Shown one piece after another: positions 48,001 to 51,000 of a DNA stretch of 64,000 bases. The stretch lies in the NCBI RefSeq assembly GCF_035594765.1, contig NC_085842.1, positions 17,832,782 to 17,896,781 of the forward strand, read 5' to 3'. This DNA is from Anolis carolinensis (lineage: Eukaryota). How positions within the stretch are numbered: the stretch's first letter is position 1; each line of letters opens with the position of its first letter. The position numbers were made by a program.

Positions 48001-51000
48001 GGAAAATCTTTGTCAGTGACTTGCTGAGGTCCTCGTTTCACAAGTATTTTCCGTACCTCATCATTTATTTTAGATGGCCACTCTCCACAATCATCTGAAA
48101 TCGATAATGGGTCTCTGCTTAGTTCCTGAAAAAAAAATAATATGTAGTGTATGTTAACTTTTAAAAGATTTCAAAGGTTTAATGCAGTGCAGTATCAATA
48201 CCTATAATACCTTATTATGAAATCTTTAATTAAAAATGGAAATAAAATAAACCTTGTGACAGTGGCCAATCGGAAAGGTAGATTTTGCATATTAATTATA
48301 AATGTAAACCATGATAAACACAAATTATTTTATAAAATTATGGTGGCAGTTCTGAACAGATTTACTGAATGTATATGTTAATAAAATCTACCTAAAAATA
48401 GCTCTGAGATATTTTATAATAAAGAATTCTGGAAAAGTGCCCTTTTCATCCTCCACCTCCATTCCTCCCTCCTCTCAACAAGAGCTAAACAAACTGGACA
48501 GGCCTAGGCCAATTATATTTTCCTAATATGTGTACTAATAAGATAAAATTAAATCTACTTACAGTTTCAATGGTTTGCGGACTAGATGGCAGGACTGCAT
48601 CTCCTAATAAATCATCATCCACATCTTCGGTATCGGTCCCAGTTAGGTCAATAATGGAAGGTGCTAATGGTGTTGCTGTGGTCACTGTAAGATGGTCTTG
48701 ACTTGCTGGTGGTCCAGGTGGAAGATCAGATATTGGTATCTTGTCGTTATCGTCATGAGCTGATTCAGTCAATTTAGTTGGCTCTGTGTTTCTTGTTGCA
48801 CATGATGGTGAGGTGGTTTGCAATGCTTTAGATTGATTCTCATCTTCTTTGCAATGCTGCAACTTCCTTTTACGATGAAATGCTCCTGATGGCTTTCCTT
48901 GCTGGACATTTTCTGTTAAAAAAACCCAACTCATCATATAAGGAAGGGAGATGCCACAGAACAGCTTTCAGCTTACAACAACACAGCAGAGATACAGCCT
49001 GCAGCTCCATCCAAGTACTAACTATGGCTGATTCTGCGTAGCTTCCAAAATCAGATGGGAGTTGGTACTTTTAGGGTATTTAGGTCCCAAGATGTATATA
49101 TCAGCCCTCTTTTACCAAGAGTAAAAGAAATACAAATTAAAACTTTGGAAAACAAGAGTGAATACAAAGAAACACTAATTAGCGGGGGGGGGGGACAATT
49201 AACATTAATAATAATGATACCCCCAGCTGTCCATCATTCAGGCAGCTCCGCCCCCTTCCCTTCCCAGCTGAGCGCTCTTGAGCCCAGTGGCGATGGCCAG
49301 GCCTCAGTGCTGAACGAGAATGGCTCTCTCTACCTGGGCCAGCTGAGCACCCCCCCCCCCCCCCCAAGTTGCTGGAAGCCAAAGGAATCACACGTGTTCA
49401 TTGAGAAATGTTAAATGTATCATCTATAGCACCAACATGTCCACAACCTGCAATTCCTCTGTTGTAATTTATTTTATTACTTTTGTCACAGCTCTTTGGG
49501 TGGTATTCCTCCTCTATGAATTATCTGGTGACTCACGAGGGGTGAACTCTGAGTAAAACATTTCCCACACTCCTAGCATTGGTATAGCTGCTCTTGAGTG
49601 TGGAATCTTTTGTGGCTCACCAAGGCTGAACTGTCAGCAAAACATTTCCCACACTTCTGGCATTGGTATGGCTTCTTCCCTGTGTGGAGTCTTTTGTGGC
49701 TCACCAAGGCTGAAACATTTCCCACACTCCTGGCACTGGTATGGCTTCTCTCCTGTGTCGAGTCTTTTGTGCCTCACCATGGTTGAACTGTCAATAAAAT
49801 ATTTACCACACTCCTGGCATTGGTCTGGCTTCTCTCCTGTGTGGAGTCTTTTGTATTTCACCAAGTGTGAACTGGAAGCAAAACATTTCCCATAATCCTG
49901 GCATTGGTATGGCTTCTCCCCGGTGTGGAGTCTTTTGTGGTTCATCAAGGCTATGTTTCAGGAATGTTGAAGGGAGAAAGAAGTCAGAAGGAGATCAGCT
50001 GGGCTAGCAGAGAAAACGCTGAGCAATCAGACCGCGCCCAAGAGACAGGTGGGCTGGGAAACTCAGGGCTATAAATCAGCAGCAAAGTCTGGGGCCCAGT
50101 GCTGGCTGCAACTGACCTACTTGAGGGGAGTTCTTGTTCCAAGCACCGTTTCTCCGTTCCAGCGTCAGATCTTGCTTAAGGCTCTTGGCTATTGACGATT
50201 GTTTTTGCAACCTGTAAGCCTGTTTATCAAAGACTCTAATTTCTGTCTGATGTGAAGACTTCTGTTTTACGTTTGTTTGAAGACCATGCATTATCATCAG
50301 GATTATACTTTGTTTCACTTATTGAATTATCTTTATTTTTGCTGAAATAAAGCCTTTTTATTTATTTTCCCTTGTGTCTGAGGCTGTTTCTGGGGTAAAA
50401 CCGGACTGTTAGCCTGGTTGGCTGGAAGGAAAAACAAGGTTAAATATCACCCACATAAAAACATGTATAGCTCCGTCTGCAGATCTGAAGCCAGGGGAAG
50501 TTTGTTCTTTTTTATGCTTCACTCTCCGGCCCCACTCTCCAGCCAATCAATCTGCGCAATGACTCTTAATAGATTTCCAAGAAGCCCGAGTTACTGGGCA
50601 GAAGCATGTAAGCAGACATCAGGAGCAAGTCAGCTTTTGCAAAAAAAACTCTTTTCAATCATTTTCTGTACTCCTTTTGGCTTCAGAGATGGCATGGCTT
50701 TCCAAGCCATCCAAGAGTACACAGGATGCAAAACCAGCTTGCTGAAAAAGTGTGCCTGCAGTCAGGAGAGGTTTGCTGAGTTACCTTTTGAAATCTAGTC
50801 CCCTTGCCTCCCCTGCCTCTCTTTCTTTCTCAAACACACTCGGAGAGAGAGAGTGAGATAGTGTGACTGATCTGGGGTGATCACTCTTGAGAGGTTTTCC
50901 AAGGAGCCCAGTTGCTGCAAGGGACTCCAGTTATGGAAGTCTTCCCACTGGAGACCAAATTGGTGCTAACATTGCTGCTGCTCAGACACCAAGTCAATAT

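What the first reader, a model, noticed from the sequence alone, without database searches (positions are those of the whole stretch)
49477..50407. Deletion that removed the zinc-finger acceptor ends exactly at an LTR-like boundary
Seen: finger sequence stops in mid-finger at ~49952 and abuts the TG start of an LTR-like element. Relative to unit C, the intron 3' part, the CAGCAG acceptor and the 5' half of the finger exon are missing. Unit C keeps only the 3' ~170 bp of the same element (20250-20418). Inference: an LTR-associated deletion (for example recombination between two LTR copies) removed the competing acceptor and left the transposase acceptor as the next one available. The remnant then decayed (frameshift near 49713, Cys/His losses). 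The LTR points antisense toward the KRAB exon and keeps TATAAA and AATAAA.
Basis: partly seen in the sequence, partly recalled or inferred. Interest (0 to 1): 0.7.

Follow-up and report, generated by a model that had tools for sequence, protein, structure and literature searches.

The report
Finger-exon deletion in a lizard KRAB–transposase gene
In one copy of a lizard zinc-finger gene cluster, a 1.4-kb deletion removed the splice site and front half of the finger exon, so the repressor exon can only splice into a neighbouring hAT transposase; this is a known kind of gene birth.

Summary
The window is an anole-like tandem array of SCAN-KRAB-zinc-finger genes on the minus strand (units A-E). 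Unit E keeps only the last 476 nt of its finger exon (49477-49952). Compared with sister unit C, it lacks about 901 nt of exon, the conserved CAGCAG acceptor and about 459 nt of intron. The remnant abuts a 454-bp insertion (49954-50407). C keeps only the last ~170 bp of that insertion, and units B and D have an empty site there.

The deletion does end within 0-7 bp of the insertion's 5' edge. However, the junction heptamer AAGGCTA equals the intron flank preserved at D's empty site and shares six bases with the finger repeat. A single microhomology-mediated deletion therefore fits better than recombination between two LTRs.

"LTR" rests on weak signs: a TG start and TATAAA followed by AATAAA. 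There is no CA end, no clean target duplication and no second copy in the window.

The KRAB donor is phase-compatible with an acceptor just upstream of the hAT reading frame. An annotated Anolis carolinensis protein (946 aa, KRAB plus hAT) maps exon by exon onto unit E. This is therefore a new example of known transposase capture. Interest is modest.

The parts
49477..49952 (-). Remnant of the unit E zinc-finger exon (last ~5.7 fingers). Broken: 5' part and acceptor deleted, 1 frameshift, 3 of 20 zinc-ligand codons changed.
   Evidence: homology to C 18293-18888; Pfam zf-C2H2/zf-H2C2_2; counts.
49947..49953 (+). Junction heptamer AAGGCTA. Six bases are shared with the finger repeat (AAGGCT); all seven are shared with the intron flank at D's empty site (30793-30799).
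   Evidence: 9 matches on both strands of the window, 3 on the + strand (7436, 30793, 49947).
49954..50407 (+). LTR-like 454-bp insertion. It starts with TG, has TATAAA at 50070 and AATAAA at 50346 followed by a GT-rich stretch. The 3' bound is good to about 2 bp. No coding hit.
   Evidence: sequence; empty sites in B and D; no other copy; no Pfam hit; motifs.
51143..51269 (-). KRAB-A exon of unit E: 127 nt, AG acceptor, GT donor, donor in phase 1.
   Evidence: (Pfam KRAB, E=1.7e-13). P0001 aa 11-54, 91% identity.
48563..48914 (-). hAT exon 1. It follows the acceptor tttttttaacag, is open in the frame that fits a phase-1 donor, and ends at a GTAAGT donor in phase 0.
   Evidence: P0001 aa 55-170, 94% identity.
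45798..48125 (-). hAT exon 2, including the stop codon: 775 codons, with DUF4371 and the hAT C-terminal dimerisation domain. It follows the acceptor ttttttttcag in phase 0.
   Evidence: P0001 aa 172-946, 94.5% identity; conserved columns.
45261..49367 (-). hAT-bearing block with no counterpart in units B, C or D. Bounds are approximate. No terminal inverted repeats or 8-bp target duplication were found.
   Evidence: homology lost at 49368; no inverted repeats.
49468..49478 (-). Two overlapping AATAAA hexamers at the stop codon of the finger remnant; this is the old terminal-exon poly(A) signal, still present.
54722..54757 (-). Short exon that matches the first 12 residues of the A. carolinensis model P0001.
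   Evidence: 12 of 12 identical, E=0.12 on its own; colinear with the other exons.
55743..56477 (-). Open segment holding the SCAN-domain exon of unit E.
   Evidence: Pfam SCAN, E=2e-34.
18399..19789 (-). Intact finger exon of sister unit C, used as comparator: 11 C2H2 patterns and the CAGCAG acceptor.
20249..20420 (+). Unit C remnant of the same insertion (its last ~170 bp). The AATAAA is changed here.
30776..30806 (+). Empty site in unit D. It carries a 22-nt stretch absent from B and C. Its last 7 nt equal E's junction heptamer.
6785..6802 (+). Empty site in unit B.

Best explanation
Unit E of a tandem SCAN-KRAB-zinc-finger array in an anole-like genome is a KRAB-hAT transposase fusion locus. 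An insertion of about 454 bp, LTR-like but unproven, entered the intron upstream of the finger exon in the common ancestor of units C and E. In E alone, one deletion of about 1.36-1.38 kb then joined a finger to the intron flank right next to that insertion. It used the six bases AAGGCT, which fingers carry 4-6 times per exon in B and C (once in D) and which the intron carries once, beside the insertion. On this reading the closeness to the element's edge comes from where that motif sits, not from LTR biology. C lost the element's first ~305 bp plus about 20 bp of flank in a separate small deletion. The E deletion removed the finger exon's acceptor, so the old terminal exon can no longer be defined. 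The KRAB donor (phase 1) then has as its next compatible partner the acceptor just upstream of the hAT reading frame. This gives KRAB, then hAT exon 1, then hAT exon 2.

Shown: the deletion, its bounds, the empty sites, the heptamer, the splice phases, and the matching annotated protein in A. carolinensis.

Inferred: the microhomology mechanism, the ancestral flank (it rests on unit D alone), the effect on splicing, and the order of events.
For: E and C are colinear except for C 18889-20248. B and D are colinear across an empty site at B 6785/6802 and D 30773/30812. AAGGCTA lies at D 30793-30799, directly left of the empty site, and at E 49947-49953, directly left of the TG. Only 3 + strand copies occur in 64 kb, and no finger carries it. 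AAGGCT occurs 4, 6 and 1 times in the B, C and D finger exons, and once in D's 1721-bp intron, at that flank. The CAGCAG acceptor is conserved in B, C and D, and the KRAB exons are 127 nt with GT donors. The acceptor sits in front of hAT exon 1 and the frame is open from it. P0001 (946 aa, NCBI 'zinc finger MYM-type protein 1-like [Anolis carolinensis]', Pfam KRAB + DUF4371 + hAT dimerisation) was the only one of the 120 listed hits with a KRAB domain. It maps colinearly to 54757-54722, 51275-51144, 48913-48566 and 48125-45801 at 100, 91, 94 and 94.5% identity. Its KRAB exon is closest to E's: 91% against 86, 77 and 70% for C, D and B. Cosby et al. (bioRxiv 10.1101/2020.05.07.082677, section 5 read) describe capture through an acceptor immediately upstream of the transposase reading frame, and loss of the parental transcript with age.
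Against: The ancestral left flank is inferred from unit D alone. B and C lack that 22-nt stretch, so it could be D-specific. In that case the flank would read as in C (…GAGCCTA), with only 5 of 7 bases matching the junction. The element also contains look-alikes of the junction motif (17 nt at 76% at 50063-50079; an 18-nt inverted match at 83% at 50339-50356), so the element might extend a few bases left of 49954. A deletion end within 7 bp of an insertion edge in a ~1.4-kb intron is itself a roughly 1-in-100 coincidence. No constraint could be shown on unit E's host exons. In the SCAN exon, E-C nucleotide identity is 88.1%, like the intron. Branch counts are 4 synonymous to 10 non-synonymous on E and 2 to 12 on C, with 14 codons ambiguous. 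No transcript data exist for this window. P0001 is 94% identical, not identical, so orthology is likely but not proven.
Confidence: 0.55

Rival explanations
1. A second copy of the same LTR sat in the finger exon, and unequal recombination between the two copies deleted everything between them, leaving one LTR flanked by finger on the left and intron on the right.
For: The finger sequence ends within 0-7 bp of the TG that starts the insertion, and the insertion's right flank is the ancestral intron. Ectopic recombination between LTRs is a known cause of deletions (recalled; not taken from a call).
Against: No second copy or trace of one exists anywhere in the window. The base at 49953 is A, where all fingers have G after AAGGCT. 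The 7 bases left of the TG equal D's intron flank, which this model leaves to chance (3 + strand copies in 64 kb). The flanking tetramers GCTA and GTTA match at 3 of 4 positions, which suits a single insertion site better than two.
Confidence: 0.12
2. The 454-bp piece is not an LTR. It could be another kind of insertion: a different transposon fragment, filler DNA, or two unrelated pieces of 305 bp and 150 bp. In that case the promoter-like and poly(A)-like motifs are chance.
For: There is no CA at the 3' end, only TA is surely duplicated at the flanks, and there are no terminal inverted repeats. There is no other copy in 64 kb. No gag, protease, integrase or env domain was found: of the 93 open segments scanned (out of 156 listed), 5 had hits, all LINE-like RVT_1 or zf-RVT. 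The first 305 bp are joined to the C-shared 150 bp only in E.
Against: TATAAA followed 276 bp later by AATAAA and a GT-rich stretch on one strand is found in only 47 of 2542 same-size windows here. The piece starts with TG. It behaves as one insertion relative to B and D. C's junction is explained by one small deletion with CTTC microhomology.
Confidence: 0.35
3. The order is reversed. The deletion first killed the unit E finger gene. The hAT element landed downstream later, and its acceptor was then picked up. On this view the deletion did not release an existing fusion isoform from competition.
For: Finger-remnant identity to C (87.4%) equals intron identity (87.5%), so no period of constraint on E's fingers is visible. 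The hAT reading frame shows no stop or frameshift in 775 codons, whereas the 476-nt remnant has one frameshift. That fits a younger hAT.
Against: The same contrast is expected if the hAT frame is under selection. Cosby et al. report that young fusions usually coexist with the parental transcript (18 of 33 younger than 100 My; section 5). Nothing in the window dates either event.
Confidence: 0.3
4. The junction at 49952/49954 is an assembly artefact that joins two paralogous units.
For: The locus is a tandem array of 80-90% similar units, which is a setting where collapses occur.
Against: Both sides of the junction are colinear with unit C and carry their own substitutions at about 12-13% divergence. 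The remnant has decayed as expected for a dead exon. An independent A. carolinensis gene model skips finger sequence in the same way.
Confidence: 0.03

Closest known systems
Host-transposase fusion genes born by transposase capture, e.g. KRABINER (KRAB + mariner in vespertilionid bats). Source: Cosby et al., bioRxiv 10.1101/2020.05.07.082677; section 5 and search passages read.
   Same: A KRAB exon of a KRAB-zinc-finger gene is spliced to a transposase frame through an acceptor lying immediately upstream of that frame. As in KRABINER step iii, one frameshift in the transposase puts it in the frame of the host exons. Here the family's usual start codon is out of frame, while the frame that fits the KRAB donor is open. 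The parental finger isoform is lost.
   Different: The transposase is hAT, not mariner, and lies downstream of the finger exon rather than in the last intron. The parental isoform is abolished by a physical deletion of its acceptor. No transcript or functional data exist for this window.
NCBI protein 'zinc finger MYM-type protein 1-like [Anolis carolinensis]' (P0001, 946 aa).
   Same: Same exon order and the same junction residues. Identity to the window's exons is 91-100% per exon. It carries Pfam KRAB + DUF4371 + hAT dimerisation domains.
   Different: It is 94% identical, not identical, so it comes from another species, assembly or copy. Its genomic locus could not be fetched, so whether it shares the deletion and the LTR-like piece is unknown.
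Solo LTRs and LTR-LTR ectopic recombination deletions (recalled general knowledge; not from a call).
   Same: A ~450-bp piece with a TG start and promoter-like and poly(A)-like signals, lying at the edge of a deletion.
   Different: No second copy, no CA end, no clean 4-6-bp duplication. The junction carries flank bases plus microhomology.
SCAN-(KRAB)-zinc-finger gene expansion of A. carolinensis. Source: Liu et al. 2014, PMC3971581; search passages read. [quoted passage not shown]
   Same: Units B, C and D have a SCAN exon, a 127-nt KRAB exon and a single large finger exon in tandem.
   Different: Unit E has lost most of its finger exon and carries a transposase instead.
ZBED9/SCAND3, a mammalian SCAN + hAT-derived gene (recalled; not returned by any search).
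   Same: A SCAN-family host gene combined with hAT-derived sequence.
   Different: Not tested here. The PDB sequence search gave 0 hits, and no tool returned this protein.

Membership tests
LTR of an LTR retroelement (solo LTR) | Termini 5'-TG ... CA-3' with short inverted ends | tested here: not met
   The 5' TG is at 49954. The 3' end reads ...CCGGACT(GT) with no CA. No terminal inverted repeat was found.
LTR of an LTR retroelement (solo LTR) | Target-site duplication of 4-6 bp | tested here: inconclusive
   Only TA is surely duplicated. GCTA/GTTA match at 3 of 4 and GGCTA/TGTTA at 3 of 5. The left flank is also the deletion junction.
LTR of an LTR retroelement (solo LTR) | U3-R-U5 layout: promoter signal upstream of a poly(A) signal on one strand | tested here: met
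   TATAAA at 50070 and AATAAA at 50346, followed by a GT-rich stretch. This order is seen in 47 of 2542 same-size windows.
LTR of an LTR retroelement (solo LTR) | Other copies of the family, paired copies, or gag-pol nearby | tested here: not met
   The window holds no other copy and no gag, protease, integrase or env domain (93 of 156 segments scanned, 5 LINE-like hits). A genome-wide search was not possible with these tools.
LTR of an LTR retroelement (solo LTR) | Behaves as an insertion relative to empty paralogous sites | tested here: met
   B 6785/6802 and D 30773/30812 are empty; C and E are filled.
Host-transposase fusion gene (transposase capture) | Host-domain exons and transposase exons on one strand in order, with an acceptor just upstream of the transposase frame | tested here: met
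   SCAN 56477-55743, KRAB 51269-51143, acceptor before 48914, hAT exons 48914-48563 and 48125-45798.
Host-transposase fusion gene (transposase capture) | Reading-phase compatibility of the host donor and the transposase acceptor | tested here: met
   The KRAB donor is phase 1. The frame open from 48914 needs one carried base, as does the finger exon in C. This was checked exon by exon; the joined sequence was not built.
Host-transposase fusion gene (transposase capture) | A transcript or gene model joining the two | tested here: inconclusive
   The A. carolinensis model P0001 joins them. There are no transcript data for the window's own genome.
Host-transposase fusion gene (transposase capture) | Purifying selection on the captured transposase | tested here: inconclusive
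   775 codons are open. 104 of 120 columns invariant in 8 distant named relatives are kept, including 16 of 16 acidic ones. No nucleotide sequences of relatives were available for a codon test. The SCAN exon shows no constraint.
hAT superfamily transposon | hAT transposase domains | tested here: met
   DUF4371 (E=2.5e-18) and Dimer_Tnp_hAT (E=7e-10). 789 relatives at E<=1e-10.
hAT superfamily transposon | Terminal inverted repeats and an 8-bp target duplication | tested here: not met
   None were found around 45261-49367. The ends may be eroded or mis-placed by me.
Microhomology-mediated deletion | Bases at the junction shared by both parental sequences | tested here: met
   AAGGCT is shared by the finger (C 18883-18888) and by the intron flank as kept in D (30793-30798). 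This is conditional on D showing the ancestral flank.

The most novel reading that the evidence does not exclude
Unit E shows the maturation step of a young KRAB-transposase gene. A single microhomology deletion removed the parental finger exon's acceptor. That turned a locus able to make either a KRAB-finger or a KRAB-hAT product into one that can only make KRAB-hAT. One frameshift in the transposase also locks its frame to the KRAB donor rather than to its own start codon. This would be a physical, datable route for the 'loss of the parental transcript with age' that Cosby et al. inferred only from transcript surveys.
Probability: 0.3. Interest if true: 0.45.

Novelty: new member of a known kind. 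Interest (0 to 1): 0.3.

Why it matters
Transposase capture by KRAB and SCAN genes is an established route to new vertebrate transcription factors. How the parental isoform disappears is less well documented. This locus has intact sister units beside it, so the lost sequence, both breakpoints and the splice phases can be read directly. If other anoles keep the intermediate state, the order of events could be dated from sequence alone. The LTR-like piece adds little. Its closeness to the breakpoint is better explained by a shared six-base motif than by LTR biology.

Tried and rejected
- Other copies of the 454-bp piece. A sensitive blastn against the whole window gave only the C remnant.
- Inverted or direct terminal repeats of the piece. 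Only short, chance-level matches were found.
- Rfam on the whole window at gathering thresholds: 0 matches.
- Pfam on open segments of both strands. There was no retroelement gag, pol, integrase or env, and no coding hit in the LTR-like piece. I gave only 93 of 156 segments and dropped 63 that lay in the SCAN, finger and hAT exon regions.
- The open frames just right of the piece (20430-20882, 50418-50798) as a possible gag. Rejected: no Pfam hit, and the start of this stretch (50419-50539) aligns with intron of B and D.
- Ends of the hAT block. No terminal inverted repeats or 8-bp duplication were found.
- PDB sequence search with the hAT frame: 0 hits.
- Direct KRAB-to-hAT-exon-2 splicing. 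Rejected because the phases do not fit (phase 1 donor, phase 0 acceptor).
- Constraint test on the SCAN exon. Counts were too small and ratios near neutral.
- The prokaryote-only genome collection was not used, as it cannot hold this locus.
- My first count of frameshifts was wrong by an off-by-one error and was replaced.
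Full report
**What the window is**

The window has no N runs and no Alu-like or other Rfam family. It carries a ~330-bp inverted-repeat element in about ten copies. Its best protein matches are Anolis carolinensis proteins.

A self-comparison and Pfam scans show a tandem array of SCAN-KRAB-zinc-finger genes on the minus strand:

| Unit | Contents |
|---|---|
| A | SCAN only, 1-1846 |
| B | finger exon up to 5945, KRAB 7401-7275, SCAN about 12278-12763 |
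| C | finger exon 19789-18399, KRAB 21296-21170, SCAN about 23435-23920 |
| D | finger exon up to 29546, SCAN about 37506-37991 |
| E | see below |

Liu et al. 2014 report more than 300 SCAN-containing finger genes in A. carolinensis (PMC3971581; passages read).

**The observation**

- E and C are colinear at 49368-49952 = 18293-18888 (86.7%) and again at 50258-51609 = 20249-21628 (87.5%).
- C 18889-20248 therefore has no counterpart in E. This stretch is 901 nt of finger exon, the CAGCAG acceptor that B, C and D all keep, and 459 nt of intron.
- In its place E has 49953-50257, which matches nothing else in the window.
- E 50258-50430 matches C 20249-20442 at 83%.
- The finger remnant (49477-49952) is 416/476 identical to C. 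It has one frameshifting indel, keeps 17 of 20 zinc-ligand codons, and shows 2 of 5 whole finger patterns in any one frame. This corrects, where an off-by-one start gave two frameshifts.

**The inserted piece**

B and D are colinear with each other and with C and E on both sides of a point (B 6785/6802, D 30773/30812). At that point C has about 170 extra bases and E about 454. The piece is therefore an insertion in the C/E ancestor. Its 3' bound is near 50407-50409.

- For an LTR: it starts with TG. TATAAA at 50070 is followed by AATAAA at 50346 and a GT-rich stretch on the + strand. That order occurs in only 47 of 2542 same-size windows of this locus.
- Against an LTR:
  - No CA end.
  - Only TA (or 3 of 4 bases) is duplicated at the flanks.
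  - No inverted termini.
  - No second copy.
  - No gag, protease, integrase or env anywhere in the window. Of 156 open segments I scanned 93; five had hits, all LINE-like RVT_1 or zf-RVT.

The family could not be identified.

**The junction**

The seven bases left of the TG in E (AAGGCTA, 49947-49953) are identical to the seven bases directly left of D's empty site (30793-30799).

- The heptamer occurs only three times on the + strand of the window. No finger has it, because fingers read AAGGCTG.
- The hexamer AAGGCT occurs 4 and 6 times in the B and C finger exons and once in D's. It occurs once in D's 1721-bp intron, at this flank.

The simplest reading is one deletion between two AAGGCT copies, one in a finger and one in the intron flank beside the insertion. 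The insertion would then truly start at 49954, and the deletion would end 1-7 bp to its left.

C's shorter copy is explained by a separate deletion of about 325 bp across the element's 5' edge, with CTTC shared at its junction.

Caveats:
- The flank is known from D alone. B and C lack that 22-nt stretch.
- The stretch is itself part of a small palindrome in D.
- The element contains weak look-alikes of the junction motif.

LTR-LTR recombination is not excluded. It needs an unseen second copy and leaves the heptamer match to chance.

**What the deletion does**

I tested the splice model exon by exon and left the joined step out.

1. The KRAB exon (51269-51143, 127 nt) ends in phase 1.
2. In C the finger exon after CAGCAG also starts in phase 1.
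3. In E, the next acceptor that fits is tttttttaacag before 48914. From there the frame is open to a GTAAGT donor after 48563, in phase 0.
4. A second acceptor before 48125 opens the 775-codon hAT frame in phase 0. Direct KRAB-to-48125 splicing would be out of frame.

The best database hit, P0001 (946 aa, NCBI 'zinc finger MYM-type protein 1-like [Anolis carolinensis]'), has KRAB as well as hAT domains. It was the only one of the 120 listed hits that does. In total 789 proteins passed E<=1e-10 among 7998 scored candidates.

P0001 maps colinearly to 54757-54722, 51275-51144, 48913-48566 and 48125-45801. Its residues at both exon joins are those predicted from the window. Its KRAB exon is nearer to E's (91%) than to those of C, D or B (86, 77, 70%).

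Stand-alone A. carolinensis relatives (P0005, P0007) begin with their own start codon just after this acceptor. In the window and in P0001 that start codon is out of frame with the rest (one frameshift), and the open frame is the one that fits the KRAB donor.

The old poly(A) hexamers of the finger exon are still present at 49468-49478. That loss of the acceptor disables use of this terminal exon is inference from exon definition, not a result.

**Is unit E alive?**

- The hAT frame has no stop or frameshift in 775 codons. It keeps 104 of 120 columns that are invariant in eight distant named relatives, including 16 of 16 acidic ones. Stand-alone anole copies keep 98-114.
- The dead 476-nt finger remnant has already taken a frameshift. 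The hAT frame is therefore either younger or under selection; I cannot tell which.
- The SCAN exon gives no sign of constraint. E-C identity is 88.1%. Branch counts are 4 synonymous to 10 non-synonymous on E and 2 to 12 on C, with 14 codons ambiguous.
- No ends of the hAT element were found.
- The PDB holds no sequence relative.

**Comparison with what is known**

Cosby et al. describe the same route (bioRxiv 10.1101/2020.05.07.082677; section 5 and passages read):
- KRAB is the commonest host partner, with 32 fusion events.
- hAT makes up 23.4% of captured transposases.
- In 8 of 9 cases the acceptor lies immediately upstream of the transposase frame.
- A single-base deletion set the frame in KRABINER.
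- The parental transcript fades with age.

Their supplementary tables, which may list this very gene, were closed. I found no description of this deletion, but I ran only two literature searches, and neither was aimed at it. I therefore do not claim that it is unpublished.

**Verdict**

This is a new, well-resolved example of a known kind of event. The LTR is probably a bystander.

**Left unchecked**
- The element's family.
- The orthologous loci.
- Transcripts.
- Read support for the junction.

Noticed in passing
window 2033-2365, 9659-9990, 16730-17061, 43496-43824, 44322-44623, 57978-58305, 58428-58757, 58880-59200, 61064-61386, 62981-63301: About ten copies, in both orientations, of a ~330-bp non-coding element with ~23-nt terminal inverted repeats. 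Copies are 82-93% alike. The copy at 2033-2365 is flanked by TA, so it looks like a Tc1/mariner-type miniature element.
   Followed up: partly
window 48563-48940 (minus strand): The hAT family's usual start codon is out of frame with the rest of the transposase (one frameshift). The frame that fits the KRAB donor is open. The A. carolinensis fusion protein P0001 reads the same way, which parallels the frame-setting step described for KRABINER.
   Followed up: partly
window 30776-30799 (unit D): D's empty site holds a 22-nt stretch absent from B and C. It forms a small palindrome (7-nt arms, 10-nt spacer). It could be an old footprint or a local duplication, and it bears on how far D can stand for the ancestral flank.
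   Followed up: partly
window 49353-49367: A run of about 15 C (G on the gene strand) sits exactly where E's homology with the 3' flank of the B, C and D finger exons is lost. This is about 110 bp past the finger stop codon, at the upstream edge of the hAT-bearing block.
   Followed up: no
window 26184-27041, 35251-35688, 33325-33660, 3766-4119, 9091-9576, 53542-54317 (all minus strand): LINE-like reverse-transcriptase fragments (RVT_1, zf-RVT, and a weak endonuclease match) are scattered in introns and between genes. The fragment at 53542-54317 is part of a ~2.4-kb E-specific insert between the KRAB exon and the short upstream exon.
   Followed up: partly
window 38283-41771 and 25379-26141 = 42133-42888: A ~3.5-kb stretch separates D's SCAN block (ends about 38283) from the SCAN-tail homology at 41771-42109, which directly follows the SCAN block in units A and B. 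Beside it, a ~760-bp repeat is shared at 90% with the region downstream of unit D's finger exon.
   Followed up: no
window 20340-20360 versus 50340-50352: The AATAAA of the LTR-like piece is intact in E but changed at one base in C's remnant.
   Followed up: no
window 55743-56477 versus 473-958, 12278-12763, 23435-23920, 37506-37991: The open segment around the SCAN exon is 245 codons in unit E but 162 codons in each of units A-D. Substitutions among the SCAN exons look nearly neutral, though the counts are small.
   Followed up: partly
window 44616-44644, 17066-17131, 52177-52234: Runs of a three-base (TAA/ATT) microsatellite recur beside several of the miniature elements and in E's intron.
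   Followed up: no
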